Shown here: positions 22,875 through 42,322 of the stretch, one piece after another
Layout: each line of letters starts with the position of its first letter
Position numbering within the stretch: the stretch's first letter is position 1
Position numbers and translations under genes: made by a program
Notes under the pieces: model-generated
Seen by the model: only the letters and a program-made list of their open reading frames with translations
The model's database searches: none
What the model was told of the DNA's origin: nothing
Assembly: GCF_056746865.1 (NCBI RefSeq)
Contig: NZ_CM163382.1
Length of the DNA stretch: 64,000 nt
Direction: 5' to 3' (one strand)

Positions 22875-23048
22875 ATCGACTATATTCGAGACTGATGACA
22901 AACGCAAAACTGCCTGATGCGCTACGCTTATCAGGCCTACATGGTCCTGCAATATATTGAATTGGCAAGATTTTTGTAGGCCGGATAAGGCGTTCACGCC
23001 GCATCCGGCATGAACGACGCGCACTTTGTCAACAATCTGACGTTAGCA

Positions 23049-25289
23049 TCAGAAGTGAGTATTAATGCTCATATACCACGTACGTCCCGGCTCGTTATAG
23101 GTATACGCCCCGGCACCGGCGATATAGTTGGCTCCTGCCAGATCGCCCGTGGTCTGGGCATTACCCGCACGCCACAAACGTTTGTCGAACAGGTTGTCCA
23201 CGCCGCCGGTCAGACTGACATTCTTCGTTACATCCCAGGTCGCGCTCAGGCCAACAATGCTGTACGGGCTGATTTCTTTGGTTTCCGGTCCAACCGCTGG
23301 CTGACCTTTATAGTTGTACTTCTTCGGCTGCTGCTTGCCGTACCAGGTGAAGGTTGTTTGCATCGACAAATCTTCCCGTGCCTGCCAGCTCAGCGTTGAG
23401 TTCAACGTATACTCCGGGATGATCGACAAACGGTCGCCCGTGGTTTTGTTTTCACTCTTCAGCATATAAGTGATGTTATTGGTCCACATCACCGTTTCGC
23501 TAACCGGTACGTTTAACGATCCTTCCAGACCTTCAACCACCGCTTTCGGTACGTTATCCCACTGATAGAGATCGGTGCCGACTGCGTTTTGCCCTACAGC
23601 CACATAGCCCGCTTCAATCTTATTGCGATAATCGTTACGGAACCAGGTGACGCCCGCCAGCCAGCCGTCGCGTTTGAACTCCAGACCAATCTCCTTGTTG
23701 ATACTGGTTTCCGCTTTCAGGTCATCATTACCTTGCAGATAGCAGCCGCCCGCGCTGGCATAGCAGCCCTGACCTTTACTGTAGAGAATGTAGTTTGGGT
23801 TAGTCTGGTACAGACTCGGCGCTTTATAAGCACGGGCAATGCCCATTTTCAGCGTGAAGTCATCGCCTAAACCTTGCGAGATATTCAGCGCCGGACTCCA
23901 GTTATTGCCAACAATGCTGTGATGATCGAAACGCAGCCCCGGCGTTACGATGGTGCTGTCAGTCAGCTCCATATTGTTTTCGGCAAACAGCGAGAAAATT
24001 TCTGCTTTTGAATATGGGCTACGGTCGGTGGCACTCACGCCATCAATAGCGCCACCGGTATTCGTCCCGGTGAGCGCCTGGGTGTTGGAACTTAAGTCCT
24101 TCATCCGTTGCTGATTCCACTCCGTACCCAGCGTCAGCGTCTGGTTAACGAGGAAATCAATCGGCAGGTTAACTTCGCTATGCAGCATCACGTCATCGAG
24201 ATCGATATCGACGAAATCCTGTGTCGCTTTTTCGTTAAATTTCCCTTCTGTGCCGCCCGCCAGACCTTCCGGGATGCGCGAGTTACGGGTGTGTTCGTAC
24301 TGCACCCAGTTGCTGGTGGTCACGCCGTTATCCCAGCCGCCGTTCCAGGTCAGCGAGTAGTTCTGGCGATACAGACGGTTGGTTTCATCGCCATATTTCG
24401 AGCGGGTATAGGAGTCAGAGTTGGTGTTCTGGGTATCGCCCGCATACAGGTTACCCTGGCGGCTGTAACCCGCTTCCAGTTCCAGCGATTGCAATGGTGC
24501 GAAGTCCCAGCGCACCACGCCATTAATATCTTTGTTGATCACCCCTTCGCGCCCGGCTGGTAACGTCGTGGCATAGGTTCCGGCACGCGCGGACTGATGG
24601 CCCTGGTTGATATCCCACGCGTCAGCCTGGGTTTTGTCGAGGTTGCCATACAAGCGGAAGCTGAATTCGTCGCCCAGCGGACCGGTGAGGCTAAAGTTAG
24701 TGCGTTTGGTGGCACCTTCCTCTTTATGTTCTGGCGCATTGAAATATGCGTCCCAGGAGCCGTGCCACTCACCACTGCCTTTTTTGGTAATGATGTTAAC
24801 CACGCCGCCCGCCGCGCCGTTGCCATAACGCGCAGCTGCCGGACCACGCAGAACTTCAATACGTTCAATCATTTCAGGTGGCACCCAGGAGGTATCACCA
24901 CGGGTATCGCGCTCGCCACGCCAGCCCTGACGCACCGAGTTACGGCTGCTTACCGGCTTGCCGTCAATCAAAATCAGCGTGTTTTCCGGACCCATGCCGC
25001 GAATATCAATTTGTCGGTTATTCCCACGCTGACCACTGGTGGAGTTACCGGTCAGGTTAACGCCTGGCATGGTACGGATGATCTCCGACACATCGCGGGC
25101 AACGGGGTTTTTGCGGATTTCATCTGCGGTGATGGTCGAAACGCCAGGCGCTTGCAAGTTCTGCTCGGCGGCGGTAACGACAATGGTATCGTCGTGTGAA
25201 ACAGGAGTATCGGTTGGCTCTTGTGCCTGTGCTACCCCATAAATCCCCAGATTGACCAACAAGGCCAGGGAATGAATCTTCTTGTTCAT
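23049..25289 (-). CDS. fepA: Ferric enterobactin outer-membrane receptor FepA (TonB-dependent)
   Basis: Translation MNKKIHSLALLVNLGIYGVAQAQEPTDTPVSHDDTIVVTAAEQNLQAPGVSTITADEIRKNPVARDVSEIIRTMPGVNLTG... ending ...TWYMSINTHF. Confidence 0.95.
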   Translation of the reverse strand: MNKKIHSLALLVNLGIYGVAQAQEPTDTPVSHDDTIVVTAAEQNLQAPGVSTITADEIRKNPVARDVSEIIRTMPGVNLTGNSTSGQRGNNRQIDIRGMGPENTLILIDGKPVSSRNSVRQGWRGERDTRGDTSWVPPEMIERIEVLRGPAAARYGNGAAGGVVNIITKKGSGEWHGSWDAYFNAPEHKEEGATKRTNFSLTGPLGDEFSFRLYGNLDKTQADAWDINQGHQSARAGTYATTLPAGREGVINKDINGVVRWDFAPLQSLELEAGYSRQGNLYAGDTQNTNSDSYTRSKYGDETNRLYRQNYSLTWNGGWDNGVTTSNWVQYEHTRNSRIPEGLAGGTEGKFNEKATQDFVDIDLDDVMLHSEVNLPIDFLVNQTLTLGTEWNQQRMKDLSSNTQALTGTNTGGAIDGVSATDRSPYSKAEIFSLFAENNMELTDSTIVTPGLRFDHHSIVGNNWSPALNISQGLGDDFTLKMGIARAYKAPSLYQTNPNYILYSKGQGCYASAGGCYLQGNDDLKAETSINKEIGLEFKRDGWLAGVTWFRNDYRNKIEAGYVAVGQNAVGTDLYQWDNVPKAVVEGLEGSLNVPVSETVMWTNNITYMLKSENKTTGDRLSIIPEYTLNSTLSWQAREDLSMQTTFTWYGKQQPKKYNYKGQPAVGPETKEISPYSIVGLSATWDVTKNVSLTGGVDNLFDKRLWRAGNAQTTGDLAGANYIAGAGAYTYNEPGRTWYMSINTHF

Positions 25290-25454
25290 TGTTTTATTCC
25301 TGCATTTTTGCCACGAATTGCAACTGTCGGGCATGGTCGTCATCAATACGACGCACCCCGCTACCGCGAAAACCTTTGATCCTGAAAGACACGCAGTGCA
25401 GTTGGTTAATTAATGTCCGCGCTTCCCACGGCGCGCCATTACGCTATTGCAAAT

Positions 25455-25490
25455 GCAAATAGTTATCAATAATATTATCAATATATTTCT
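25455..25490. promoter_or_regulatory. Fur box in the divergent fepA / fes-ybdZ-entF promoter region
   Basis: Sequence aaatagttatcaataatattatcaatata resembles the Fur consensus gataatgataatcattatc; lies between divergent iron-regulated operons. Confidence 0.6.
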
Positions 25491-25531
25491 GCAATCAATG
25501 AAAAATTGCACAGTAAACATGGGGTTATGGT

Positions 25532-26734
25532 GTGACGGCGTTAAAAGTAGGAAGTGAGAGCTGGTGGCAGTCGAAACATGGCCCGGAATGGCAGCGTCTG
25601 AATGACGAAATGTTTGAGGTCACTTTCTGGTGGCGTGATCCCCAAGGTTCTGAAGAATACTCGACGATAAAGCGGGTATGGGTCTACGTCACTGGTGTGA
25701 CCGATCACCATCAGAACAGCCAGCCCCAGTCGATGCAGCGAATTGCAGGCACCAACGTCTGGCAGTGGACGACACAACTCAATGCCAACTGGCGCGGCAG
25801 CTACTGTTTTATTCCCACCGAACGCGATGACATTTTTTCTGCACCATCCCCCGATCGCCTCGAATTACGTGAAGGCTGGCGAAAACTATTACCCCAGGCG
25901 ATAGCCGATCCGCTGAATCCACAAAGCTGGAAAGGCGGGCGAGGGCACGCTGTTTCTGCACTCGAAATGCCGCAAGCGCCTCTGCAACCGGGATGGGATT
26001 GTCCGCAAGCGCCAGAAATACCTGTCAAAGAAATTATCTGGAAAAGTGAACAGTTGAAAAATTCACGCCGTGTATGGATTTTTACCACCGGCGATGCAAC
26101 AGCAGAAGAACGCCCGCTGGCAGTTTTGCTTGATGGCGAATTTTGGGCGCAGAGTATGCCCGTCTGGCCTGCGCTGACTTCGCTGACCCATCGTCGGCAA
26201 CTTCCTCCCGCCGTGTATGTGTTGATCGACGCTATCGACACCACGCACCGCGCTCACGAACTGCCGTGTAATGCGGATTTCTGGCTGGCAGTACAGCAAG
26301 AGTTATTACCCCTGGTGAAAGCTATTGCCCCTTTTAGCGATCGCGCCGATCGCACCGTGGTCGCCGGGCAGAGTTTTGGTGGGCTTTCCGCGCTGTATGC
26401 CGGACTGCACTGGCCTGAACGTTTTGGCTGTGTATTAAGCCAGTCAGGATCGTACTGGTGGCCGCATCGGGGCGGGCAGCAAGAAGGTGTTTTACTTGAG
26501 CAACTTAAAGCTGGTGAAGTTAGCGCCGAAGGTCTGCGCATTGTGCTGGAAGCGGGTATTCGCGAGCCGATGATCATGCGGGCCAATCAGGCGCTGTATG
26601 CGCAATTACACCCTATAAAAGAATCCATTTTCTGGCGTCAGGTTGACGGCGGACATGATGCGCTTTGTTGGCGCGGTGGCTTGATGCAGGGGCTAATCGA
26701 CCTCTGGCAACCACTTTTCCATGACAGGAGTTGA
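25532..26734 (+). CDS. fes: Enterochelin esterase Fes
   Basis: 400-aa ORF from a GTG start, MTALKVGSESWWQSKHGPEWQRLNDEMFEVTFWWRDPQGSEEYSTIKRVWVY... Confidence 0.93.
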   Translation: MTALKVGSESWWQSKHGPEWQRLNDEMFEVTFWWRDPQGSEEYSTIKRVWVYVTGVTDHHQNSQPQSMQRIAGTNVWQWTTQLNANWRGSYCFIPTERDDIFSAPSPDRLELREGWRKLLPQAIADPLNPQSWKGGRGHAVSALEMPQAPLQPGWDCPQAPEIPVKEIIWKSEQLKNSRRVWIFTTGDATAEERPLAVLLDGEFWAQSMPVWPALTSLTHRRQLPPAVYVLIDAIDTTHRAHELPCNADFWLAVQQELLPLVKAIAPFSDRADRTVVAGQSFGGLSALYAGLHWPERFGCVLSQSGSYWWPHRGGQQEGVLLEQLKAGEVSAEGLRIVLEAGIREPMIMRANQALYAQLHPIKESIFWRQVDGGHDALCWRGGLMQGLIDLWQPLFHDRS

Positions 26735-26736
26735 AT

Positions 26737-26955
26737 ATGGCATTCAGTAATCCCTTCGATGATCCGCAGGGAGCGTTTTACATTTTGCGCAATGCGCAGG
26801 GGCAATTCAGTCTGTGGCCGCAACAATGCGCCTTACCGGCAGGCTGGGACGTTGTGTGTCAGCCGCAGTCACAGGCGTCCTGCCAGCAGTGGCTGGAAGC
26901 CCACTGGCGTACTCTGACACCGTCGAATTTCACCCAGTTGCAGGAGGCGCAATGA
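26737..26955 (+). CDS. ybdZ: MbtH-like protein YbdZ
   Basis: MAFSNPFDDPQGAFYILRNAQGQFSLWPQQCALPAGWDVVCQPQSQASCQQWLEAHWRTLTPSNFTQLQEAQ; overlaps the fes stop and the entF start. Confidence 0.9.
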   Translation: MAFSNPFDDPQGAFYILRNAQGQFSLWPQQCALPAGWDVVCQPQSQASCQQWLEAHWRTLTPSNFTQLQEAQ

Positions 26956-29900
26956 GCCAGCATTTACCTTTGGTCGCCGCACAGCCCGGCATCTGGATGG
27001 CAGAAAAACTGTCAGATTTACCCTCCGCCTGGAGCGTGGCGCATTACGTTGAGTTAACCGGAGAGGTTGATGCGCCATTACTGGCCCGCGCGGTGGTTGC
27101 CGGATTAGCGCAAGCAGATACGCTGCGGATGCGTTTTACGGAAGATAACGGCGAAGTCTGGCAGTGGGTCGATGATGCGCTGACGTTCGAACTGCCAGAA
27201 ATTATCGACCTGCGAACCAACATTGATCCGCACGGTACTGCGCGGGCATTAATGCAGGCGGATTTGCAACAAGATCTGCGCGTCGATAGCGGTAAACCAC
27301 TGGTCTTTCATCAGTTGATACAGGTGGCGGATAACCGCTGGTACTGGTATCAGCGTTATCACCATTTGCTGGTCGATGGCTTCAGTTTCCCGGCCATTAC
27401 ACGCCAGATCGCCAATATTTACTGCGCATTGCTGCGTGGCGAACCAACGCCTGCTTCGCCGTTTACGTCTTTCGCTGATGTAGTGGAAGAGTATCAGCAG
27501 TACCGCGAAAGTGAAGCCTGGCAGCGTGATGCGGCATTCTGGGCGGAACAGCGTCGTCAACTGCCACCGCCCGCGTCACTTTCTCCGGCACCTTTACCGG
27601 GGCGCAGCGCTTCGGCAGATATTTTGCGCCTGAAACTGGAATTTACCGACGGGGAATTCCGCCAGCTGGCTATGCAACTTTCAGGTGTGCAGCGTACCGA
27701 TTTAGCCCTTGCGCTGGCGGCTTTGTGGCTGGGGCGATTGTGCAATCGCATGGACTACGCCGCCGGATTTATCTTTATGCGTCGACTGGGCTCGGCGGCG
27801 CTGACGGCTACCGGACCCGTGCTCAACGTTTTGCCGTTGGGGATTCACATTGCGGCACAAGAAACGCTGCCGGAACTGGCAACCCGACTGGCAGCACAAC
27901 TGAAAAAAATGCGTCGTCATCAACGTTACGATGCCGAACAAATTGTCCGTGACAGCGGGCGAGCGGCAGGAGAGGAACCGCTGTTCGGTCCGGTACTCAA
28001 TATCAAGGTATTTGATTACCAACTGGATATTCATGGTGTTCAGACGCAAACCCATACCCTGGCAACCGGTCCGGTTAATGACCTTGAACTGGCCCTGTTC
28101 CCAGATGAACACGGTGATTTGAGTATTGAGATCCTCGCCAATAAACAGCGTTACGATGAGCCAACGTTAATTCAACACGCTGAACGCCTGAAAATGCTGA
28201 TTGCCCAGTTCGCCGCGGATCCGGCGCTGTTGTGCGGCGATGTCGATATTATGCTGCCAGGTGAATATGCGCAGCTGGCGCAGATCAACGCCACTCAGGT
28301 TGAGATTCCAGAAACCACGCTGAGCGCGCTAGTGGCAGAACAAGCGGCAAAAACACCGGATGCTCCGGCGCTGGTTGATGCGCGTTACCAGTTTAGCTAT
28401 CGGGAAATGCGCGAACAGGTGGTGGCGCTGGCGAATCTGCTGCGTGAGCGCGGCGTTAAACCAGGCGACAGCGTGGCGGTGGCGCTACCGCGCTCGGTCT
28501 TTTTGACCCTGGCGCTGCATGCAATTGTTGAAGCAGGCGCGGCCTGGCTACCGCTGGATACCGGCTATCCGGACGATCGTCTGAAGATGATGCTGGAAGA
28601 TGCGCGCCCGTCGCTGTTAATCACCACCGACGATCAACTGCCGCGCTTTGCCGATGTTCCAGATTTAACCAGCCTTTGCTATAACGCCCCGCTTAAACCG
28701 CAGGGCAGTGCGCCGCTGCAACTTTCACAACCGCACCACACGGCTTATATCATCTTTACCTCCGGTTCCACCGGCAGACCGAAAGGGGTAATGGTCGGGC
28801 AGACGGCTATCGTCAACCGCCTGTTGTGGATGCAAAACCATTACCCGCTTACAGGCGAAGATGTCGTTGCCCAAAAAACGCCGTGCAGTTTTGATGTCTC
28901 GGTGTGGGAGTTTTTCTGGCCGTTTATTGCCGGGGCGAAACTGGTGATGGCTGAACCGGAAGCGCACCGCGACCCGCTCGCTATGCAGCAATTCTTTGCC
29001 GAATATGGCGTAACGACCACGCACTTTGTGCCCTCTATGCTGGCGGCATTTGTTGCTTCGCTGACGCCGGAAACTGCTCGCCAGAGTTGCGCGACCTTGA
29101 AACAGGTTTTTTGTAGCGGTGAAGCCTTACCGGCCGATTTATGCCGCGAATGGCAACAGTTAACCGGCGTGCCGTTGCATAATCTATATGGCCCGACGGA
29201 AGCGGCGGTAGATGTCAGCTGGTATCCGGCTTTTGGCGAGGAACTGGCACAGGTGCGCGGTAGCAGCGTGCCGATTGGTTATCCAGTGTGGAATACGGGC
29301 CTGCGTATTCTTGATGCGATGTTGCATCCGGTGCCGCCGGGTGTGGCAGGCGATCTCTATCTCACCGGCATCCAACTGGCGCAAGGGTATCTGGGACGAC
29401 CCGATCTGACCGCCAGCCGCTTTATTGCCGATCCTTTTACCCCAGGTGAACGCATGTACCGTACCGGAGATGTTGCCCGCTGGCTGGAAAACGGCGCGGT
29501 GGAGTATCTCGGGCGTAGTGACGATCAGCTAAAAATTCGTGGTCAGCGAATTGAACTGGGCGAAATCGATCGCGTGATGCAGGCGCTGCCGGATGTCGAG
29601 CAAGCTGTTACCCACGCTTGTGTGATTAATCAGGCGACAGCCACCGGGGGGGATGCGCGTCAGCTGGTGGGCTATCTGGTGTCGCAATCAGGTCTGCCGT
29701 TGGATACCAGCGCATTGCAGGCGCAACTGCGCGAAACATTGCCGCCGCATATGGTACCCGTCGTTCTGCTGCAACTTCCACAGTTACCTCTTAGCGCCAA
29801 CGGCAAGCTGGATCGCAAAGCCTTACCGTTGCCTGAACTGAAAGCACAAGCGCCGGGGCGTGCGCCGAAAGCGGGCAGTGAAACGATTATCGCCGCGGCA

Positions 29901-30833
29901 TTCTCGTCGTTGCTGGGTTGTGACGTGCAGGATGCCGATGCTGATTTCTTTGCGCTTGGCGGTCATTCGCTACTGGCAATGAAACTGGCTGCGCAGTTAA
30001 GTCGGCAGTTTGCCCGTCAGGTGACGCCGGGGCAGGTGATGGTCGCGTCAACTGTCGCCAAACTGGCAACGATTATTGATGGTGAAGAAGACAGCTCCCG
30101 GCGCATGGGATTCGAAACCATTCTGCCGTTGCGTGAAGGTAATGGCCCGACGCTGTTTTGTTTCCATCCTGCGTCCGGTTTTGCCTGGCAGTTCAGCGTG
30201 CTCTCGCGTTATCTCGATCCACAATGGTCGATTATCGGCATTCAGTCGCCGCGCCCTCATGGCCCCATGCAGACCGCGGCAAACCTGGATGAAGTCTGCG
30301 AAGCGCATCTGGCAACGTTACTTGAACAACAACCGCACGGCCCTTATTACCTGCTGGGGTATTCGCTGGGCGGTACGCTGGCGCAGGGCATAGCGGCGCG
30401 ACTGCGTACCCGTGGTGAACAGGTGGCATTTCTTGGCTTGCTGGATACCTGGCCGCCAGAAACGCAAAACTGGCAGAAAAAAGAGGCTAATGGTCTGGAC
30501 CCGGAAGTACTGGCGGAGATTAACCGCGAGCGCGAGGCCTTCCTGGCGGCACAGCAGGGAAGTACTTCAACGGAGTTGTTTACCACCATTGAAGGCAACT
30601 ACGCTGATGCTGTGCGCCTGCTGACGACTGCTCATAGTGTACCGTTTGACGGTAAAGCGACGCTGTTTGTTGCTGAACGCACGCTTCAGGAAGGTATGAA
30701 TCCCGAACGCGCCTGGTCGCCGTGGATTGCGGAGCTGGATATCTATCGTCAGGATTGTGCGCATGTGGATATTATCTCTCCGGTGGCGTTTGAAAAAATT
30801 GGGCCGATTATTCGTGCGACGCTAAATAAGTAA
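26952..30833 (+). CDS. entF: Enterobactin synthase component F (NRPS: C-A-PCP-TE, serine-activating)
   Basis: Translation from MSQHLPLVAAQPGIWMAEKLSDLPSAWSVAHYVELTGEVDAPLLARAV... matches EntF; contains the adenylation core FTSGSTGRPKGV, the PCP motif FFALGGHSL and the thioesterase GYSLGG. Confidence 0.95.
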   Translation: MSQHLPLVAAQPGIWMAEKLSDLPSAWSVAHYVELTGEVDAPLLARAVVAGLAQADTLRMRFTEDNGEVWQWVDDALTFELPEIIDLRTNIDPHGTARALMQADLQQDLRVDSGKPLVFHQLIQVADNRWYWYQRYHHLLVDGFSFPAITRQIANIYCALLRGEPTPASPFTSFADVVEEYQQYRESEAWQRDAAFWAEQRRQLPPPASLSPAPLPGRSASADILRLKLEFTDGEFRQLAMQLSGVQRTDLALALAALWLGRLCNRMDYAAGFIFMRRLGSAALTATGPVLNVLPLGIHIAAQETLPELATRLAAQLKKMRRHQRYDAEQIVRDSGRAAGEEPLFGPVLNIKVFDYQLDIHGVQTQTHTLATGPVNDLELALFPDEHGDLSIEILANKQRYDEPTLIQHAERLKMLIAQFAADPALLCGDVDIMLPGEYAQLAQINATQVEIPETTLSALVAEQAAKTPDAPALVDARYQFSYREMREQVVALANLLRERGVKPGDSVAVALPRSVFLTLALHAIVEAGAAWLPLDTGYPDDRLKMMLEDARPSLLITTDDQLPRFADVPDLTSLCYNAPLKPQGSAPLQLSQPHHTAYIIFTSGSTGRPKGVMVGQTAIVNRLLWMQNHYPLTGEDVVAQKTPCSFDVSVWEFFWPFIAGAKLVMAEPEAHRDPLAMQQFFAEYGVTTTHFVPSMLAAFVASLTPETARQSCATLKQVFCSGEALPADLCREWQQLTGVPLHNLYGPTEAAVDVSWYPAFGEELAQVRGSSVPIGYPVWNTGLRILDAMLHPVPPGVAGDLYLTGIQLAQGYLGRPDLTASRFIADPFTPGERMYRTGDVARWLENGAVEYLGRSDDQLKIRGQRIELGEIDRVMQALPDVEQAVTHACVINQATATGGDARQLVGYLVSQSGLPLDTSALQAQLRETLPPHMVPVVLLQLPQLPLSANGKLDRKALPLPELKAQAPGRAPKAGSETIIAAAFSSLLGCDVQDADADFFALGGHSLLAMKLAAQLSRQFARQVTPGQVMVASTVAKLATIIDGEEDSSRRMGFETILPLREGNGPTLFCFHPASGFAWQFSVLSRYLDPQWSIIGIQSPRPHGPMQTAANLDEVCEAHLATLLEQQPHGPYYLLGYSLGGTLAQGIAARLRTRGEQVAFLGLLDTWPPETQNWQKKEANGLDPEVLAEINREREAFLAAQQGSTSTELFTTIEGNYADAVRLLTTAHSVPFDGKATLFVAERTLQEGMNPERAWSPWIAELDIYRQDCAHVDIISPVAFEKIGPIIRATLNK

Positions 30834-30848
30834 ATTTATATTATCTAT

Positions 30849-30890
30849 AAACCCATAATTACAGAAAATAATTATGGGTTTATCATTTGT
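30849..30890 (+). terminator. Putative rho-independent terminator after entF
   Basis: Perfect 13-bp inverted repeat aaacccataatta / taattatgggttt with a 7-nt loop, followed by a T-rich stretch. Confidence 0.6.
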
Positions 30891-31048
30891 TTAATTTATA
30901 AATTTGGTGGGTGTTTCTCTGAAATAGAGTGAATGTTGCATTCAGTGGGAGTAATTTACAAACTTCAGCTTCGGATAAATCTCACCAACTGGTAGAGTGG
31001 GGGCCGTGGAGATTTACTCTTATTGGACTCATTTTCAGGTTATACCCC

Positions 31049-32167
31049 ATGTCATCACTGAATATTAAACAGGGAAGTGACACTCATTTTCCCGAGTATC
31101 CTCTGGCGTCGCCCAGTAATAATGAAATTGATTTACTTAATCTAATCGAAGTTTTATGGCGGGCCAAAAAAACGGTCATGGCGGTCGTTTTTGCGTTTGC
31201 CTGCACAGGATTGCTGATCTCTTTCATCCTGCCGCAAAAATGGACCAGCGCGGCGGTTGTCACGCCTCCAGAACCTGTTCAGTGGCAGGCGCTTGAGAAA
31301 ACATTCACTAAGCTTCGTGTGCTGGATCTGGATATCAAAATTGATCGTACAGAAGCATTTAACCTGTTTATCAAGAAGTTTCAGTCGGTTAGCTTGCTGG
31401 AAGAGTACCTGCGCTCAACACCTTATGTGATGGACCAATTAAAAGAGGCGAAAATCGACGAGCTGGATTTGCATCGCGCAATTGTCGCATTGAGCGAAAA
31501 AATGAAAGCGGTTGATGACAATGCCAGTAAGAAAAAAGATGAACCGTCACTGTATAACTCCTGGACGCTAAGTTTTACCGCGCCAACCAGTGAAGAGGCG
31601 CAGACCGTTTTGAGCGGGTATATCGATTATATCTCTGCGTTGGTGGTGAAAGAGTCGATAGAAAACGTCCGTAATAAACTGGAGATCAAAACCCAGTTTG
31701 AAAAAGAAAAACTGGCTCAGGACCGCATTAAAACGAAAAATCAACTTGATGCAAACATTCAGCGCCTCAATTATTCACTCGACATTGCTAACGCGGCAGG
31801 AATTAAAAAGCCCGTTTACAGTAATGGTCAGGCCGTTAAAGATGACCCCGATTTCTCTATTTCTCTCGGCGCAGACGGTATTGAACGCAAACTGGAAATT
31901 GAAAAAGCGGTTACTGACGTTGCGGAACTGAACGGTGAATTACGTAATCGTCAGTATCTTGTTGAGCAGTTAACAAAAGCAAATATCAACGATGTGAATT
32001 TTACGCCGTTTAAATATCAGTTAAGCCCGTCATTGCCAGTGAAAAAAGACGGTCCGGGTAAGGCGATTATTGTGATCCTTTCTGCGATGATCGGCGGGAT
32101 GGTGGCTTGTGGTGGCGTGCTGTTGCGCCATGCGATGGCATCCAGAAAACAGGATGCCGTGATGTAA
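31049..32167 (+). CDS. fepE: FepE, polysaccharide co-polymerase (Wzz-like chain-length regulator)
   Basis: Translation from the internal Met, MSSLNIKQGSDTHFPEYPLASPSNNEIDLLNLIEVLWRAKKTVMAVVFAFACTGLLISFILPQKW... Confidence 0.9.
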   Translation: MSSLNIKQGSDTHFPEYPLASPSNNEIDLLNLIEVLWRAKKTVMAVVFAFACTGLLISFILPQKWTSAAVVTPPEPVQWQALEKTFTKLRVLDLDIKIDRTEAFNLFIKKFQSVSLLEEYLRSTPYVMDQLKEAKIDELDLHRAIVALSEKMKAVDDNASKKKDEPSLYNSWTLSFTAPTSEEAQTVLSGYIDYISALVVKESIENVRNKLEIKTQFEKEKLAQDRIKTKNQLDANIQRLNYSLDIANAAGIKKPVYSNGQAVKDDPDFSISLGADGIERKLEIEKAVTDVAELNGELRNRQYLVEQLTKANINDVNFTPFKYQLSPSLPVKKDGPGKAIIVILSAMIGGMVACGGVLLRHAMASRKQDAVM

Positions 32168-32178
32168 GAGCACTTAGT

Positions 32179-32994
32179 TTAACTATTTGCGGTTGAAGGT
32201 GCCGTTCGTCCGAGCGGCACCACGAGCGGCGTTCCGGCAACCGGGTCGTCAATAATCATGCAGCGCAGACCATAAATGCGCTCGATCAATTCAGCAGTGA
32301 CAATCTCTTTCGGCGCTCCCTGAGCAACAATTTTCCCTTCCCGCAATGCAATCAAATGGCTGGCGTAACGACAGGCCTGATTAAGATCGTGCAGCACCGC
32401 CGCCAGGGTATAGCCTTTCTCGCGGTTCAGTTCGCTTAACAGTTCCAGGAGATCAATCTGATGACTGATATCCAGCCAGGTCGTGGGTTCATCGAGCAGC
32501 ATAATTGCCGTTTCCTGGGCCAGCACCATCGCGATCCACGCTCTCTGGCGTTGCCCACCGGAGAGGGTATCCACGCTTTGATCCGCCAGATGGGTGATTC
32601 CCGTGGCCTGCATCGCTTTTGTGACGGCCTCTTCATCTTCTTTGCGCCAGCGGGTAAACAGCGGTTGATGCGGGTAACGCCCACGCGCCACCAGCTCCTG
32701 CACGGTGATATCTCCCGGCGTGGTGGCGTTTTGCGCCAACAGGCCAATCCGGCGTGCAACCTCTTTACTGGCGTAATGTTGAATGTGCTCACCATCCAGC
32801 CAGACATGCCCGTGAGCAGGCGTCATCAGGCGGCTTAAGGTACGCAGTAACGTGGATTTACCGCAGCCATTTGGCCCGATAATTGCCGTGAAGTGACCAT
32901 CAGGTATTTCTACAGTCAGATTTTCCGCAACGGTATATTTGCCATATCCGAGGGTTAACTGTTCGCCACGCAAACGGGCTACTGATTCGGTCAT
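32179..32994 (-). CDS. fepC: Ferric enterobactin ABC transporter ATPase FepC
   Basis: Translation MTESVARLRGEQLTLGYGKYTVAENLTVEIPDGHFTAIIGPNGCGKSTLLRTL... (Walker A); start at the internal Met of the longer ORF. Confidence 0.93.
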   Translation of the reverse strand: MTESVARLRGEQLTLGYGKYTVAENLTVEIPDGHFTAIIGPNGCGKSTLLRTLSRLMTPAHGHVWLDGEHIQHYASKEVARRIGLLAQNATTPGDITVQELVARGRYPHQPLFTRWRKEDEEAVTKAMQATGITHLADQSVDTLSGGQRQRAWIAMVLAQETAIMLLDEPTTWLDISHQIDLLELLSELNREKGYTLAAVLHDLNQACRYASHLIALREGKIVAQGAPKEIVTAELIERIYGLRCMIIDDPVAGTPLVVPLGRTAPSTANS

Positions 32995-33983
32995 TTTTTG
33001 CGAGACTCCTGAATTAACAAGACGATAAGGTAAATACCGCCGAGGCTGACGGTAACGACGCCAACCGGAAGTTGATACGGCATAAACAGTTGTTGGGCGC
33101 AGAGATCGGCCGCCAGCAGTAACAACGCCCCGCACAGCGCCGCCTGGGTCAGCCCCCAGCGAGCGGTGCCGCTAATGCGTCGGGCAATGTGCGGCGCGAC
33201 TAAAGCAATAAAGGAAATCGGCCCGGCAAGCGCTGTTGCCGCAGCGGTAAGCACCACTGCAACCAGCATCATTAACAGACGCGAACGTTCGACGCTGACG
33301 CCCAGCGCACACGCGGTATCATCGCCCATTTCCAGCAAGCGCATCCGGCGTACCAGTAAGGCGGCGGCAATGAGCATCAATATAATGATGGGTGCGGAAG
33401 GCGAGGTTTTTGCCCACGTCAGGCCGTTGAGCGATCCGGCATTCCACAAACCCGCTGTTAGCGCCGTTTCTAAAGACGCTTTCAGCAACAGCCAGGTATT
33501 AAAGGCCACCAGCATGGCGCGAACGCCGATGCCGATAATAATCAACCGAAAGGTGTCGATGCCGTTACGCCAGGCAAGCAGCCAGACCAACAGCGAAGTG
33601 ATAATGCCCCCCGCCATTGCTGCCAGGGCAATAGCCGTCAGGTCCTGACCAAACAGCACCATCGCCACCAGCACGCCGCTCCACGCCCCGGTGTTAAAGC
33701 CCATTACGTCAGGGCTGCCGAGCGGGTTACGCATCAGCGACTGAAAAATCGCGCCGCTGACGCCCAGTGCCGCGCCAATCAACAGCGCCATCAGCACGCG
33801 TGGTAAACGCCATTCGGTGACCACCATCGTCATACTGCGCGGCGCATCGCCCATCAGCGCGGCGAATATCTGCGAGGTTTCCAGCGTGACGGTACCGCTG
33901 CGTAATCCCCAGATACCTGCAACCACACAGGCGGTAATTAGCAGCAAACAGGTGATGATTAATCGGCGAGAGACGTAAATCAT
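32991..33983 (-). CDS. fepG: Ferric enterobactin ABC transporter permease FepG
   Basis: 330-aa ORF MIYVSRRLIITCLLLITACVVAGIWGLRSGTVTLETSQIFAALMGDAPRSMTMVVTEWRLPRV... Confidence 0.95.
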   Translation of the reverse strand: MIYVSRRLIITCLLLITACVVAGIWGLRSGTVTLETSQIFAALMGDAPRSMTMVVTEWRLPRVLMALLIGAALGVSGAIFQSLMRNPLGSPDVMGFNTGAWSGVLVAMVLFGQDLTAIALAAMAGGIITSLLVWLLAWRNGIDTFRLIIIGIGVRAMLVAFNTWLLLKASLETALTAGLWNAGSLNGLTWAKTSPSAPIIILMLIAAALLVRRMRLLEMGDDTACALGVSVERSRLLMMLVAVVLTAAATALAGPISFIALVAPHIARRISGTARWGLTQAALCGALLLLAADLCAQQLFMPYQLPVGVVTVSLGGIYLIVLLIQESRKK

Positions 33984-34984
33984 GCGCCACCTCGCGTTTT
34001 ACGTCGCACGAGGAAGATCAGCACCGGTGCGCCAATAAAGGCACTGACTACAGAAACGCGCAGTTCGCCGGGCACAATCACCCGCCCGATGATATCGGCA
34101 AACAGCAGCAGGGCAGGGGTGGCAAGTAGTGTGACGGGCAGCGACCAGCGATGATCTGCTCCAACCAACCAACGTGCCATATGCGGCATCATCAGGCCAA
34201 TAAAGGCAATCGGGCCAACTACCGCCGTCGCACTACCACAAAGCACGGTAATCGCCAGCAGACCAATCAACTGTGTGCGCGCCACGCGACTACCCAGCGC
34301 CGTCGCGGTGTCACTGCCGAGGCTTAAACTGTTCAGCGCGCGGCTCAGTAATAGCGCGGTTGCTCCGGCGATCAGCACCGGGATCAGCACCACTTTTAAG
34401 GTATGTAGATTGCGAATATCCAGCGAACCGGCTTGCCAGAAACGCAACTGATCGTAGACGTCAGGATTAAGCAGGGCGATGCCGCTGGTCAGCCCTTCCA
34501 GCACCGCCGCCAGTGCCACGCCCGCCAGGGTTAAACGCACCGGACTTAACTGCCCGCCGCCCTGGCTGCCGGTAAAGGCAACAATCAATGAGGCCACCAG
34601 CGCCCCGGCGAAGGCCATCGCCAGTTGTTCCTGCGCGGATGAGTAACCAAACAGCGCCGCACCCAGCACAATGGCAAAGCTGGCTCCGGCGTTCACACCA
34701 AGCAAGCCGGGGTCGGCAAGTGGGTTTCGGGTGAGGGTTTGCATCAACGCCCCGGCAAGGCCAAGCGCACCGCCGGCCAGTAAACCGGCAAGGGTGCGCG
34801 GCAGTCGCGCGTCGAGCACGATGGTGCAGTCGGCGCTCTGGCAGGTGCCGGAGAAGGCCTCCAGCACTACGGAAGCGGGGAGTGATTTTGCCCCAATGAG
34901 CAGGCTTAATGCCGTCGCGATAATCAGTAATAACAGCAATCCGGGCACGGCAATGGCGCGTGTCACGGCAACAGAACCAGACAT
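33980..34984 (-). CDS. fepD: Ferric enterobactin ABC transporter permease FepD
   Basis: Translation MSGSVAVTRAIAVPGLLLLLIIATALSLLIGAKSLPASVVLEAF... Confidence 0.95.
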   Translation of the reverse strand: MSGSVAVTRAIAVPGLLLLLIIATALSLLIGAKSLPASVVLEAFSGTCQSADCTIVLDARLPRTLAGLLAGGALGLAGALMQTLTRNPLADPGLLGVNAGASFAIVLGAALFGYSSAQEQLAMAFAGALVASLIVAFTGSQGGGQLSPVRLTLAGVALAAVLEGLTSGIALLNPDVYDQLRFWQAGSLDIRNLHTLKVVLIPVLIAGATALLLSRALNSLSLGSDTATALGSRVARTQLIGLLAITVLCGSATAVVGPIAFIGLMMPHMARWLVGADHRWSLPVTLLATPALLLFADIIGRVIVPGELRVSVVSAFIGAPVLIFLVRRKTRGGA

Positions 34985-34995
34985 ACGAACTTCCA

Positions 34996-35024
34996 TGATA
35001 ATGAAATTAATTATCGTTATCGAT
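34996..35024. promoter_or_regulatory. Fur box in the divergent fepDGC / entS promoter region
   Basis: gataatgaaattaattatcgttatcgat resembles the Fur consensus. Confidence 0.6.
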
Positions 35025-35094
35025 CATATTTGGATATGTTAGCATGTGCAGCCTAAGAATAGGTATTTAAAATATTTGATGGCAAGGTATTGTA

Positions 35095-36345
35095 ATGAAT
35101 AAACAATCCTGGCTGCTTAACCTCAGCCTGTTGAAAACGCACCCGGCGTTTCGCGCAGTATTCCTCGCTCGTTTTATCTCAATTGTGTCTCTGGGTTTGC
35201 TCGGCGTCGCGGTACCGGTGCAGATCCAGATGATGACGCATTCTACCTGGCAGGTGGGGCTTTCGGTGACGCTGACCGGCGGCGCGATGTTTGTTGGCCT
35301 GATGGTCGGCGGTGTGCTGGCGGATCGCTATGAACGCAAAAAAGTGATTTTGCTGGCGCGCGGCACCTGTGGCATTGGCTTCATTGGACTGTGCCTTAAT
35401 GCACTGCTGCCGGAGCCATCTCTATTGGCAATCTATTTACTCGGTTTATGGGATGGTTTTTTCGCATCGCTTGGCGTTACGGCGCTACTGGCGGCGACAC
35501 CTGCACTGGTAGGGCGTGAAAACTTAATGCAGGCCGGGGCGATCACCATGTTGACCGTGCGTCTGGGGTCGGTGATTTCGCCTATGATTGGCGGTTTATT
35601 GCTGGCGACCGGCGGCGTAGCCTGGAACTACGGGCTGGCGGCGGCGGGCACGTTTATTACCTTGCTACCGTTGTTAAGCCTTCCGGCGTTGCCACCGCCA
35701 CCGCAGCCGCGTGAGCATCCGTTGAAATCATTACTGGCAGGATTTCGTTTTCTGCTCGCCAGCCCGCTGGTGGGAGGGATTGCGCTGCTGGGTGGTTTAT
35801 TGACGATGGCGAGCGCGGTGCGGGTACTGTATCCGGCGCTGGCTGACAACTGGCAGATGTCGGCGGCACAGATTGGTTTTCTCTATGCGGCGATCCCGCT
35901 CGGTGCGGCTATTGGCGCGTTAACCAGCGGGAAGCTGGCACATAGCGCGCGACCAGGGTTATTGATGCTGCTTTCCACGCTGGGATCGTTCCTCGCCATT
36001 GGTCTGTTTGGCCTGATGCCGATGTGGATTTTAGGCGTGGTTTGTCTGGCGCTGTTCGGCTGGCTGAGCGCGGTTAGTTCGTTGCTGCAATACACAATGC
36101 TGCAAACGCAAACCCCGGAAGCGATGTTAGGGCGGATTAACGGTTTGTGGACGGCGCAAAACGTGACGGGCGATGCCATAGGCGCGGCGCTGCTGGGCGG
36201 TTTGGGCGCGATGATGACACCGGTTGCTTCCGCAAGCGCGAGCGGTTTTGGTTTGTTGATTATCGGCGTGTTGTTATTGCTGGTGCTGGTGGAGTTGCGG
36301 CGTTTTCGCCAGACGCCGCCGCAGGTGACAGCGTCCGACAGTTAA
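35095..36345 (+). CDS. entS: Enterobactin exporter EntS (MFS)
   Basis: 416-aa [72 protein letters not shown]... Confidence 0.95.
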
Positions 36346-36348
36346 TGC

Positions 36349-37305
36349 TTAAAACAGCGCCTTAAGCCGTTCCAGCACTTGCATGGCGCTGTAGTAATCC
36401 AGACGGAACGTCTCGGTTCCCAGCGCATAAACCTGCTTGTTTTGTACTGCAGGCAGGTGCGCGAGCAGCGGATTAGCATAAATCGCATCGGCATCTTTCT
36501 GATCACCGGCGAACAGGAATAGTGACTCGCCATTTAACCCTGAAGCCAGATTTTCCCCACCAAGCTGAATGATGTCATGGCGTTTGCCCTGGCTTTGGCT
36601 GGCGTTTAACCCTGCTGGCAACTTCGCCAGCGTAAAGCCGAGTTGTTCCAGCATCTGCCCTTGTGCTGATTCAGGCGTCCAGAGATTAGCACTGTGTGCA
36701 GCGGCGGTATAGACAATGGCAGTGACCGGCTGCGGAGGTAATTTGATTTGCTCTTTCGCCGCCGCCAGTTGCTTATCAAACTGCGCAATCCGCTCTGCCG
36801 CTTGTTTCTCATGCCCGGTAATTTCGCCAAGCTGCGTTAACAGCGACTGCCAGCTTTTGTCGTCGTAATTGATGATTAATGTTGGGGCGATGGTGGAAAG
36901 CTGATCGTACAGCGCCAGCGCCGAATCGCCGCCGGTTGCGCTAATTAAAATCAGATCCGGCATTTGCGCGGCAACGGCTTCTGCACTTGGTTCGCCGATA
37001 TAGAGCCGTTGCAGTTTGCGTTCTTTCGCCACCTTGCTCCACTGGCGTAAAAAGCCCTGGTCATCCGCGACGCGGTTATTCGGCGTGGTCGCGCCGCTGG
37101 CAATCACCGGAGCATCAATCGCCAGCAGTGAGCCGGTCAGGGTGACGCTGGTGGAAACAATACGCTGCGGCTGGCTTTCCAGGGTATGAGTGCCCCGGCT
37201 GTCAGTAATCTGACGCGGCCAGTCGGCGGCCTGAACTGCGACTATTCCTGAAAGCAAAAGTCCTGTTAATAGAAGGGCGTTGCGGTAGAGCGGGGCGAGT
37301 CTCAC
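36349..37305 (-). CDS. fepB: Periplasmic ferric enterobactin-binding protein FepB
   Basis: 318-aa [70 protein letters not shown]... Confidence 0.95.
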
Positions 37306-37445
37306 AAGTCAGCTTCCTGTTATTAATGAAGTTAATGCTTCTCATTTTCATTGTAACCACAACCAGATGCAACCCCGAGTTGCAGATTGCGTTACCTCAA
37401 GAGTTGACATAGTGCGCGTTTGCTTTTAGGTTAGCGACCGAAAAT

Positions 37446-37464
37446 ATAAATGATAATCATTATT
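37446..37464. promoter_or_regulatory. Fur box in the divergent fepB / entCEBAH promoter region
   Basis: ataaatgataatcattatt is a near-consensus Fur box. Confidence 0.75.
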
Positions 37465-37493
37465 AAAGCCTTTATCATTTTGTGGAGGATGAT

Positions 37494-38669
<1,176 letters not shown>

Positions 38670-38678
38670 GGAGTGAGG

Positions 38679-40289
38679 ATGAGCATTCCATTCACCCGCT
38701 GGCCGGAAGAGTTTTCCCGTCGCTATCGGGAAAAAGGCTACTGGCAGGATTTGCCGCTGACCGACATTCTGACCCGTCATGCCGCAAGCGACAGCATCGC
38801 GGTCATCGACGGCGAGCGGCAGTTGAGTTACCGGGAGCTGAATCAGGCGGCGGATAACCTCGCGTGTAGTTTGCGCCGTCAGGGCATTAAACCTGGTGAA
38901 ACCGCGCTGGTACAACTGGGTAACGTCGCTGAACTTTACATTACCTTTTTCGCGCTGCTGAAACTGGGCGTTGCGCCGGTGCTGGCGCTGTTCAGCCATC
39001 AGCGTAGTGAACTGAACGCCTATGCCAGCCAGATTGAACCGGCGTTACTGATTGCCGATCGCCAGCATGCGCTGTTTAGCGGAGATGATTTCCTCAATAC
39101 ATTTGTTGCAGAGCATTCCTCCATTCGCGTGGTGCAACTGCACAACGACAGCGGTGAGCATAACTTGCAGGATGCGATTAACCATCCGGCTGAGGATTTT
39201 ACTGCCACGCCGTCACCTGCTGATGAAGTGGCCTATTTCCAGCTTTCCGGCGGCACCACCGGCACACCGAAGCTGATCCCGCGCACTCATAACGACTACT
39301 ACTACAGCGTGCGTCGTAGCGTCGAGATTTGTCAGTTCACACAACAGACACGCTACCTGTGCGCGATCCCGGCGGCTCATAACTACGCCATGAGTTCGCC
39401 AGGATCGCTGGGCGTATTTCTCGCTGGCGGCACTGTCGTTCTGGCTGCCGACCCCAGCGCCACGCTCTGCTTCCCATTGATTGAAAAACATCAGGTGAAC
39501 GTCACCGCGCTGGTGCCACCCGCAGTCAGCCTGTGGTTACAGGCGCTGACCGAAGGCGAAAGCCGGGCGCAGCTTGCCTCGCTGAAACTGTTACAGGTCG
39601 GTGGTGCACGTCTTTCTGCCACGCTTGCGGCGCGTATTCCCGCAGAGATTGGCTGCCAGTTACAGCAGGTATTCGGCATGGCGGAAGGGCTGGTGAACTA
39701 CACCCGTCTTGATGATAGCGCGGAGAAAATTATCCATACCCAGGGCTATCCAATGTGTCCGGACGATGAAGTGTGGGTTGCCGATGCTGAAGGAAATCCA
39801 CTACCGCAAGGAGAAGTTGGACGCCTGATGACGCGCGGTCCGTACACCTTCCGTGGCTATTACAAAAGCCCGCAGCACAATGCCAGCGCCTTTGATGCCA
39901 ACGGTTTTTACTGTTCTGGCGATCTGATCTCTATTGATCCAGAGGGGTACATCACCGTGCAGGGGCGCGAGAAAGATCAGATCAACCGTGGCGGCGAGAA
40001 GATCGCTGCCGAAGAGATCGAAAACCTGCTGCTGCGCCATCCGGCGGTGATCTACGCCGCACTGGTGAGCATGGAAGATGAGCTGATGGGCGAAAAAAGC
40101 TGTGCTTATCTGGTGGTAAAAGAGCCTCTACGCGCGGTGCAGGTGCGTCGTTTCCTGCGTGAACAGGGTATTGCCGAATTTAAATTACCGGATCGCGTGG
40201 AGTGTGTGGATTCACTTCCGCTGACGGCGGTCGGGAAAGTCGATAAAAAACAATTACGTCAGTGGCTGGCGTCACGCGCATCAGCCTGA
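38679..40289 (+). CDS. entE: 2,3-dihydroxybenzoate-AMP ligase EntE
   Basis: Translation [74 protein letters not shown]... Confidence 0.95.
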
Positions 40290-40302
40290 AGGAGAGAACA
40301 CG

Positions 40303-41159: not shown

Positions 41160-41160
<1 letters not shown>
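40303..41160 (+). CDS. entB: Isochorismatase / aryl carrier protein EntB
   Basis: 285-aa ORF MAIPKLQAYALPESHDIPQNKVDWAFEPQRAALLIHDMQDYFVSFWGENCPMMEQVIANIAALRDYC... Confidence 0.95.

Positions 41161-42322
<1,162 letters not shown>

What the first reader, a model, noticed from the sequence alone, without database searches (positions are those of the whole stretch)
25347..37493. Three Fur-box-like operators in the divergent promoters of the enterobactin cluster
Sequences resembling the Fur consensus gataatgataatcattatc occur in the fepA/fes region (about 25455-25490), the fepD/entS region (about 34996-35024) and the fepB/entC region (37446-37464, the closest match). This is expected for an iron-regulated siderophore cluster and supports the operon calls. 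The cluster is complete, including the MbtH-like ybdZ.
Basis: partly seen in the sequence, partly recalled or inferred. Interest (0 to 1): 0.2.

Follow-up and report, generated by a model that had tools for sequence, protein, structure and literature searches.

The report
Known Fur operators of enterobactin cluster
These are the long-known binding sites through which the iron sensor Fur switches off the E. coli enterobactin (iron-scavenging) genes; the sites are real and score far above chance, but there are four mapped sites, not three, and nothing here is new.

Summary
The window is E. coli chromosome, and 25-42 kb holds the intact enterobactin cluster (entD-fepA, fes-ybdZ-entF-fepE, fepDGC, entS, fepB, entCEBAH). 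I built a Fur weight matrix from 17 K-12 Fur sites outside this cluster. Its six best hits among ~64,000 window positions all fall in the three divergent promoter regions:
- entC: 37449-37467, 24.8 bits.
- fepD/entS: 35000-35018, 19.0 bits.
- fepA/fes: 25452-25470, 18.0 bits.

The best hit elsewhere scores 9.9. Shuffling each intergenic region gives p<=0.0005. All four sites map onto the published K-12 DNase I footprints (Chen et al. 2007, Table 3) and are conserved in other Escherichia and Citrobacter.

Two corrections. fepB-entC carries two separate operators. The entC site is strongest by matrix, but fepD/entS is closer to the quoted 19-mer (3 mismatches against 4).

Side observation: K-12 and about half of complete E. 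coli genomes carry a 186-bp hairpin repeat in the fepB leader. It abuts the fepB operator and supplies its best half. This window has the ancestral empty site.

Verdict: already known, low interest.

The parts
25440..25487 (.). fepA-fes Fur operator. This is the window equivalent of K-12 footprint 611868-611915. Core overlapping sites are 25452-25470 (18.0 bits), 25458-25476 (3.4) and 25464-25482 (9.9).
   Evidence: PWM scan. Local shuffle: 0 of 2000 reached the observed maximum. 100% identical to K-12 here. Footprint coordinates from PMC2189734 Table 3.
34966..35034 (.). fepD-entS Fur operator. This is the window equivalent of K-12 footprint 621394-621462. Core sites at 6-bp steps are 34994-35012 (6.4), 35000-35018 (19.0) and 35006-35024 (15.4).
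   Evidence: the only match within 3 mismatches of the 19-mer in the window. Local shuffle p=0.0005. One SNP against K-12, at 35026. Conserved in E. albertii, E. whittamii, Escherichia sp. MOD1-EC7003 and Citrobacter.
Sites are 37334-37352 (13.5 bits) and 37328-37346 (8.8 bits). It corresponds to the right ~24 bp of the K-12 footprint 623939-623969. The left end is replaced because this strain lacks the 186-bp repeat insertion.
   Evidence: Local shuffle p=0.0005. The core AATGCTTCTCATTTTCATT is invariant in six outgroup loci that were not selected for it.
37440..37488 (.). entC Fur operator. This is the window equivalent of K-12 footprint 624054-624102.
   Evidence: One mismatch to the 7-1-7 motif. 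100% identical to K-12. Footprint coordinates.
37404..37432 (+). Inferred entC promoter: TTGACA (37404-37409), 17-bp spacer, TAGGTT (37427-37432). The implied start is ~37439, so the operator begins at about +1.
   Evidence: Read from the sequence. Both hexamers sit in blocks invariant across Escherichia and Citrobacter, while the flanking spacers vary. The transcription start was not measured here.
37344..37372 (-). Inferred fepB promoter on the minus strand: TTGCAT (37372-37367), 17-bp spacer, GAAAAT (37349-37344). The implied start is ~37337, giving a ~32-nt leader here against ~218 nt in K-12.
   Evidence: Read from the sequence. GATGCAA and the -10/operator block are invariant across species. 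The ~103-bp distance between the two implied starts matches my recollection of Brickman et al. 1990, which I could not read.
25469..25498 (-). Promoter-like site for fepA: TTGATT, 18-bp spacer, TATTAT. Its -10 and implied start lie under the Fur sites.
   Evidence: Consensus scan, (1 found, 0.9 expected by chance, so weak on its own).
35023..35050 (-). Promoter-like site for fepD: TGCACA, 16-bp spacer, TATGAT. It lies immediately next to the Fur sites.
   Evidence: Consensus scan, (3 found, 0.5 expected).
22254..25289 (-). fepA-entD operon.
   Evidence: Annotation of a 100%-identical genome; window coordinate = L001 + 15999.
25532..32167 (+). fes-ybdZ-entF-fepE operon. ybdZ lies at 26737-26955 and is MbtH-like.
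   Evidence: Pfam PF03621, E=6.8e-22.
32179..34984 (-). fepDGC operon.
35095..36345 (+). entS (ybdA), the enterobactin exporter.
36349..37305 (-). fepB, the periplasmic binding protein.
37494..42322 (+). entCEBAH operon.

Best explanation
These are the operators of the ferric uptake regulator Fur in the three bidirectional control regions of the E. coli enterobactin cluster.

When iron is plentiful, Fe2+-Fur dimers bind arrays of overlapping 19-bp (9-1-9) sites offset by 6 bp. The arrays lie over or just downstream of the -10 and start regions of the divergent promoters. Binding blocks RNA polymerase and represses six transcription units: fepA-entD, fes-ybdZ-entF-fepE, fepDGC, entS, fepB and entCEBAH.

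fepA-fes and fepD-entS each share one operator array between their two promoters. fepB-entC has two separate arrays about 115 bp apart, one per promoter, so there are four operators in all.

Shown here: sequence match, statistics, register, identity to the footprinted K-12 DNA, and cross-species conservation. Taken from the literature: physical Fur binding and iron-dependent repression. Inferred: the exact promoter hexamers and transcription starts.
For: 1. Identity. The region is 100% identical to several complete E. coli genomes, and the cluster occurs in 5418 of 5426 genomes. All genes are annotated intact.
2. Independent matrix. A PWM from 17 Fur sites outside the cluster ranks eight positions in the four operators among the 14 best of the window. 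The top six score 24.8, 19.0, 18.0, 15.7, 15.4 and 13.5. The best position elsewhere scores 9.9.
3. Calibration. Leave-one-out training sites score 16.7-28.6. The held-out footprinted fur and tonB sites score 11.0 and 10.4.
4. Null models. Whole-window shuffles expect 0.4 hits >=13.5 against 6 observed. Shuffles of each intergenic region give p<=0.0005.
5. Positions. The best-site centres 25461, 35009 and 37458 are exactly the strongest-site coordinates that Chen et al. report for K-12 (611889, 621437, 624072). All sites lie inside the DNase I footprints of their Table 3 (mapping).
6. Spacing. Positive-scoring sites within each operator are 6 bp apart, plus one 3-bp and one 12-bp case at entC. 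This is the cluster pattern described for Fur in PMC2189734.
7. Conservation. The fepB core and the fepD-entS operator are invariant or nearly so in E. albertii, E. whittamii, Escherichia sp. MOD1-EC7003 and Citrobacter spp., while neighbouring spacer sequence varies. In each outgroup locus the top five matrix hits are these same operators.
8. Literature. Six operons arise from three Fur-controlled bidirectional regions (PMC4911079). fes, fepDGC, entS and entCEBAH are listed as strongly Fur-repressed in K-12 (PMC4676285).
Against: - No binding or expression experiment exists for this strain. Everything physical is transferred from K-12.
- The site coordinates used to train the matrix were chosen by Chen et al.'s model, which itself included ent sites. 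The independence of the matrix is therefore good but not perfect.
- The outgroup loci were selected by an exact 20-mer inside the entC operator. Conservation of that one operator is by construction and counts for nothing.
- The fepB operator of this strain lacks the half that gives K-12 its best site (18.3 bits in K-12, 8.8 here). Fur control of fepB may be weaker than in the footprinted allele.
- Simple sigma-70 scans do not recover clear promoters for fes, entS or entC at the tool's threshold. Chen et al. note that the fepD-entS cluster does not overlap a strong predicted promoter.
Confidence: 0.96

Rival explanations
1. The matches are a by-product of AT-rich promoter DNA. -10-like and UP-like sequence, or H-NS-type AT tracts, happen to resemble the AT-rich Fur consensus without being Fur sites.
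For: - The intergenic regions are AT-rich (GC 0.30-0.43).
- The fepA-fes site has 6 mismatches to the classical 19-mer, and 33 other places in the window do as well.
- Other AT-rich parts of the window (the citR gene, the PAAR gene) give 7-10 bit hits.
Against: - Dinucleotide-preserving shuffles of each intergenic region keep the AT content, yet reach the observed score in <=0.05% of trials.
- The sites coincide base for base with published footprints.
- They are islands of conservation across genera.
Confidence: 0.02
2. In this strain only three of the four operators work. The fepB operator has lost its stronger half with the absence of the repeat element. fepB would then be weakly Fur-controlled or uncontrolled, or controlled only through the entC operator about 115 bp away.
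For: - The best K-12 fepB site, ATCAATAATGCTTCTCATT (18.3 bits), spans the insertion junction.
- The window has GAAGTTAATGCTTCTCATT instead (8.8 bits), which leaves 13.5 bits as the best site.
Against: - The remaining 13.5-bit site scores above the held-out footprinted fur (11.0) and tonB (10.4) sites.
- It overlaps the inferred fepB -10.
- The empty-site form is the ancestral one, and its core is invariant in Citrobacter and other Escherichia. That argues it is a working operator.
Confidence: 0.1
3. The sites are recognised mainly by a different metalloregulator or global factor, such as another Fur-family protein like Zur, rather than by Fur.
For: Fur-family boxes are all AT-rich palindromes. 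No tool result points to this.
Against: - The matrix was built only from Fur sites of the iron regulon, and the ent sites score within the training range.
- The footprints were obtained with Fur.
- The genes are iron-acquisition genes derepressed in fur mutants.
Confidence: 0.01

Closest known systems
Fur operators of the E. coli K-12 enterobactin cluster: fepA-fes (Hunt et al. 1994), fepB-entC (Brickman et al. 1990) and fepD-ybdA/entS (Christoffersen et al. 2001; Lavrrar et al. 2002), as compiled by Chen et al. 2007 (PMC2189734)
   Same: Same locus, same genes and same operator positions. The DNA is identical across the fepA-fes and entC footprints and differs by one base within the fepD-entS footprint. 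The strongest-site centres are the same.
   Different: The fepB operator differs at its fepB-proximal end. K-12 has a 186-bp palindromic repeat inserted there, and this strain has the empty site. That changes the second overlapping site (18.3 to 8.8 bits) and shortens the inferred fepB leader from ~218 to ~32 nt.
Classical 19-bp Fur box GATAATGATAATCATTATC and its re-readings: the 7-1-7 model of Baichoo and Helmann, and the 9-1-9 M9 model with 6-bp overlapping clusters of Chen et al.
   Same: The entC site matches 14 of 14 minus 1 positions of the 7-1-7 motif, and every operator shows overlapping sites at 6-bp steps.
   Different: None of the four is a perfect box: 3, 4, 4 and 6 mismatches to the 19-mer. 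The fepA-fes site is recognisable only with a weight matrix.
Other Fur-repressed iron-uptake promoters of E. coli used here as the training set (fhuA, cir, fiu, fecA, fecI, exbB, fhuF, ryhB, sufA and others)
   Same: Same motif and the same score range: 16.7-28.6 bits leave-one-out, against 13.5-24.8 here.
   Different: Here single operator arrays serve two divergent promoters (fepA-fes, fepD-entS). One region carries two separate arrays.

Membership tests
Fur operator (E. coli Fur regulon) | Sequence scores in the range of proven Fur sites, and above genomic background, with a Fur weight matrix. | tested here: met
   Scores are 24.8 (entC), 19.0 (fepD-entS), 18.0 (fepA-fes) and 13.5 (fepB). 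Leave-one-out training sites score 16.7-28.6, and held-out footprinted fur and tonB score 11.0 and 10.4. The best hit elsewhere in the window is 9.9. Local shuffles give p<=0.0005.
Fur operator (E. coli Fur regulon) | Clusters of overlapping sites offset by 6 (or 3) bp. | tested here: met
   fepA-fes: 25452/25458/25464. fepD-entS: 34994/35000/35006. fepB: 37328/37334. entC: 37443/37446/37449/37461. The pattern is as described in PMC2189734.
Fur operator (E. coli Fur regulon) | Physical protection by Fur (DNase I footprint or gel shift). | not testable with these tools
   Transferred from K-12. The window is identical to the footprinted DNA at fepA-fes and entC. There is one SNP (35026) in the secondary part of the fepD-entS footprint. 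About 7 bp at one end of the fepB footprint are replaced.
Fur operator (E. coli Fur regulon) | Overlap with the promoter (-35/-10/+1) of the repressed gene. | tested here: inconclusive
   Promoter-like hexamers overlap or abut the sites for fepA, fepD, fepB and entC (read from sequence). The entC and fepB hexamers lie in cross-species invariant blocks. Transcription starts were not measured, and the scan tool finds about as many sites as chance in two regions.
Fur operator (E. coli Fur regulon) | Iron- and fur-dependent repression of the adjacent genes. | not testable with these tools
   Reported for K-12 (PMC4676285; PMC4911079). Not measured for this strain.
Fur operator (E. coli Fur regulon) | Conservation of the site in orthologous promoters of related species. 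| tested here: met
   The fepB core and the fepD-entS operator are conserved in 5-6 Escherichia and Citrobacter loci that were not selected on those sites. Conservation of the entC operator is uninformative, because it was the selection criterion.
Complete enterobactin (ent/fep/fes) gene cluster | All biosynthesis, export, uptake and release genes are present and intact, including the MbtH-like ybdZ. | tested here: met
   entD, fepA, fes, ybdZ, entF, fepE, fepC, fepG, fepD, entS, fepB, entC, entE, entB, entA and entH are all annotated without pseudogene flags in a 100%-identical genome. ybdZ matches PF03621 MbtH at E=6.8e-22.

The most novel reading that the evidence does not exclude
A presence/absence polymorphism of a 186-bp hairpin-forming repeat element sits in the fepB leader and abuts the fepB Fur operator. 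It may split E. coli into two regulatory types.

- Long allele: present in K-12 and in 2755 of 5426 complete genomes. The end of the element supplies the better half of the fepB operator (18.3 bits), and the leader gains a -94 kcal/mol hairpin.
- Short allele: the ancestral form, present in this window. The operator is weaker (best 13.5, second site 8.8) and the leader is ~32 nt.

If this changes Fur repression or the translation or stability of fepB mRNA, about half of E. coli would regulate enterobactin uptake differently from the K-12 model.
Probability: 0.3. Interest if true: 0.3.

Novelty: already known. Interest (0 to 1): 0.1.

Why it matters
It matters little beyond annotation quality. 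The Fur operators of the enterobactin cluster were footprinted between 1990 and 2002 and are textbook examples of iron-responsive repression at divergent promoters.

The only point with some forward value is the common repeat-element polymorphism next to the fepB operator. The K-12 footprint and leader structure for fepB may not describe about half of E. coli strains, including this urinary-isolate-like sequence.

Tried and rejected
- Primary footprint papers. I tried to read PMC95103, PMC205592 and PMC151488. None is held. Footprint coordinates come second-hand from Chen et al. 2007, whose supplement is also not held.
- Classical consensus alone. It finds one site at <=3 mismatches and cannot separate the fepA-fes site (6 mismatches) from 33 other strand-specific matches in the window. 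I rejected it as the test and used a weight matrix instead.
- Whole-window shuffles as the only null. Shuffled sequence gives a higher maximum (mean 12.8) than the real non-operator sequence (9.9), so this null is conservative. I added local shuffles.
- Extra Fur sites. Candidates in the PAAR gene (3921-3939, 9.9 bits), entH (42032-42050, 9.5) and citR (49484-50146, 7-9.3) are all below the chance-level maximum and intragenic, so I rejected them.
- Rfam on the K-12 fepB leader. It returned only sub-threshold microRNA-hairpin look-alikes.
- Naming the 186-bp element. It looks like the boxC family from memory, but I could not confirm a consensus. The name is left open.
- Literature on the fepB leader polymorphism. 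The search found nothing relevant.
- One genome-contig hit, in a 'Bulleidia' MAG, is a chance 20-mer match in unrelated context.
- Peptide-pattern scan of genome contigs. I did not run it, because the cost is out of proportion for a known feature.
Full report
**What the region is.**
- Window 25000-38000 is 100% identical to several complete E. coli chromosomes and is present in 5418 of 5426 complete E. coli genomes.
- The annotation of an identical genome (window coordinate = L001 + 15999) gives these genes, in window coordinates:
  - entD 22254-22874(-), fepA 23049-25289(-)
  - fes 25532-26734(+), ybdZ 26737-26955(+), entF 26952-30833(+), fepE 31049-32167(+)
  - fepC, fepG, fepD 32179-34984(-)
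  - entS 35095-36345(+)
  - fepB 36349-37305(-)
  - entC, entE, entB, entA, entH 37494-42322(+)
- All are intact. ybdZ matches Pfam MbtH (PF03621, E=6.8e-22).

**Checking the observation with the quoted consensus.**
- Only one place in the 64-kb window is within 3 mismatches of GATAATGATAATCATTATC: 34997-35015 in the fepD/entS region. About 0.01 such matches are expected by chance.
- The fepA/fes site has 6 mismatches by my hand count. 33 strand-specific matches in the window do as well, so the consensus alone would not single it out.
- The 7-1-7 form TGATAATNATTATCA has a one-mismatch match at 37451-37465. It has three-mismatch matches at 25454-25468 and 35002-35016.

- To avoid circularity I did not use any ent site.
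- From Chen et al. 2007 (PMC2189734, Table 4) I took the strongest-site coordinates of 17 sites elsewhere in K-12: fhuA, gpmA, fiu, sufA, cir, mntH, exbB, bfd, ryhB, sodA, fhuF, yoeA, yqjH, ydiE, nohA, fecA and fecI.
- I fetched them from NC_000913.3. For the 14 sites whose gene start was annotated in the fetched stretch, I checked the coordinate shift against the reported distances to gene starts.
- The 19-mers align without further adjustment to AATGATAATnATTATCATT.
- A symmetrised log-odds matrix gave leave-one-out scores of 16.7-28.6 bits for the training sites. The held-out footprinted fur and tonB operators scored 11.0 and 10.4.
- The best hits in the window were:

| Rank | Position | Bits | Operator |
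|---|---|---|---|
| 1 | 37449-37467 | 24.8 | entC |
| 2 | 35000-35018 | 19.0 | fepD-entS |
| 3 | 25452-25470 | 18.0 | fepA-fes |
| 4 | 37443-37461 | 15.7 | entC |
| 5 | 35006-35024 | 15.4 | fepD-entS |
| 6 | 37334-37352 | 13.5 | fepB |

- The best position outside these four places scores 9.9.
- In 300 dinucleotide-preserving shuffles of the whole window, 0.4 hits >=13.5 bits are expected against 6 observed.
- In 2000 shuffles of each intergenic region on its own, which keep its AT-richness, the observed maximum was reached in 0, 0.05%, 0 and 0.05% of cases. These figures are for fepA-fes, fepD-entS, fepB-entC and the fepB-proximal part respectively.

**Comparison with mapped footprints.**
- The primary papers are not in the held library. 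Chen et al. list the footprinted intervals in NC_000913 coordinates.
- Using K-12 and pairwise alignments, they map to the window as follows:

| Operator | K-12 footprint | Window equivalent |
|---|---|---|
| fepA-fes | 611868-611915 | 25440-25487 |
| fepD-entS | 621394-621462 | 34966-35034 |
| entC | 624054-624102 | 37440-37488 |
| fepB | 623939-623969 | about 37328-37355 |

- My best-site centres (25461, 35009, 37458) are exactly the positions Chen et al. report as strongest (611889, 621437, 624072).
- The window is identical to K-12 over the fepA-fes and entC footprints. It has one substitution (35026) in the outer part of the fepD-entS footprint.
[quoted passage not shown] The cluster therefore has four operators in three control regions, not three.
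- Within each operator the positive-scoring sites are 6 bp apart. Chen et al. interpret this signature as Fur dimers on different faces of the helix.

**Conservation.**
- A scan of species-representative genomes for a 20-mer inside the entC operator returned E. albertii, E. whittamii, two further Escherichia lineages and four Citrobacter genomes.
- Conservation of the entC site in these loci is by construction and counts for nothing. The other operators were not selected for.
- The fepB core AATGCTTCTCATTTTCATT is invariant at the same distance in all six outgroup loci that extend far enough.
- The fepD-entS operator is identical in Escherichia and closer to consensus in Citrobacter (AATGATAGTAATTATCGTT, 22.8 bits).
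- In each 7-12 kb outgroup locus that extends far enough upstream (five of them), the top five matrix hits are these same operators.
- In the fepB-entC alignment the invariant blocks are:
  - the two operators;
  - GATGCAA, which is TTGCAT on the fepB strand;
  - CAAGAGTTGACAT;
  - CTTTTAGGTTAGCG;
  - the entC ribosome-binding site.
- The spacers between these blocks vary.
- This supports two inferred promoters:
  - entC: TTGACA-17-TAGGTT, start ~37439.
  - fepB: TTGCAT-17-GAAAAT on the minus strand, start ~37337.
- These starts are ~103 bp apart, which agrees with my recollection of Brickman et al. 1990. That is memory, not a checked citation.
- The fepB operator would then cover the -10 and start. 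The entC operator would begin at about +1.
- Consensus promoter scans give only weak support for promoters in the other two regions.

**Mechanism.**
- Shown here: four arrays of high-scoring, phased, conserved Fur sites in the three divergent control regions, on DNA identical or nearly identical to footprinted K-12 DNA.
- From the literature:
  - fes, fepDGC, entS and entCEBAH are among the strongly repressed members of the K-12 Fur regulon (PMC4676285).
- Inferred: repression works by occlusion of the -10 and start regions.

**What differs from K-12.**
- The fepB-entC intergenic region is 188 bp here and 374 bp in K-12.
- K-12 carries a 186-bp insertion in the fepB leader. Its junction falls inside the fepB footprint.
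- The inserted DNA is a multi-copy palindromic repeat, with a median of 6 places per genome for a query containing it.
- As RNA the K-12 leader folds to -94 kcal/mol (z = -6). It matches no Rfam family.
- 2755 of 5426 complete E. coli genomes have the long form. The remainder have the short form seen here.
- E. albertii, Escherichia sp. MOD1-EC7003 and three Citrobacter species have the empty site, so the short form is ancestral. E. whittamii has a ~100-bp version of the insert.
- The end of the element supplies the sequence ATCAATAA. This gives K-12 its best fepB site (ATCAATAATGCTTCTCATT, 18.3 bits by my matrix; Chen et al. report 16.7). The window has GAAGTTAATGCTTCTCATT (8.8 bits) and keeps the 13.5-bit site.
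- Whether this changes regulation is untested. I found no paper on it in the held library.

**Verdict.**
- There are two small corrections: four operators rather than three, and 'closest match' is true by matrix score but not by mismatches to the quoted 19-mer.
- The feature is already known and of low interest.

Noticed in passing
window 37322-37337 (empty site); K-12 locus L002 16541-16726 (insertion): The fepB leader lacks a 186-bp palindromic repeat element that K-12 and 2755 of 5426 complete E. coli genomes carry. The junction lies inside the K-12 fepB Fur footprint, and the element's end supplies K-12's best fepB Fur site (18.3 bits, against 8.8 here). Outgroups show the empty site is ancestral. 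The element folds into a -94 kcal/mol hairpin in the K-12 leader.
   Followed up: partly
L029 (E. whittamii), about 100-225 bp upstream of the entC operator match: E. whittamii carries a shorter (~100-bp) version of the same insertion at the same site. It lacks the internal GGGTGAGGG/CCCTCACCC hairpin core, so the K-12 element may be composite, one repeat nested inside another.
   Followed up: no
window 21478-21630 and 21980-22132 (repeat 21641-21731 / 22143-22233): There are two tandem copies of the hokE toxin locus, 502 bp apart, between ybdK and entD. K-12 has an IS186 copy (IS186B) just upstream of entD, which this window lacks.
   Followed up: partly
window 1-6732: Upstream of cusS lies an island that K-12 lacks at this position. 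It holds two ISEc1 transposase genes, a PAAR-like gene, an HNH/EndoVII-fold toxin-2 gene, a SUKH-3 immunity-type gene and WD40/BNR-repeat genes. It looks like a polymorphic-toxin (Rhs/PAAR-type) orphan cassette array.
   Followed up: no
window 35026: A single A-for-T substitution relative to K-12 and all five outgroup species, 2 bp outside the core fepD-entS Fur sites but inside the extended footprint. It is specific to this lineage.
   Followed up: no
window 31049-32179: fepE (annotated wzz(fepE)) is 372 aa here and ends 12 bp before fepC. In K-12 it is 377 aa and overlaps the end of fepC, so the C-terminus differs.
   Followed up: no
window 3918-3939, 42032-42050, 49484-50146: Weak Fur-matrix hits (7-10 bits) lie inside the PAAR-like gene, entH and citR (ybdO). 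All are below the maximum expected from shuffled sequence, so they are probably chance in AT-rich coding DNA.
   Followed up: yes
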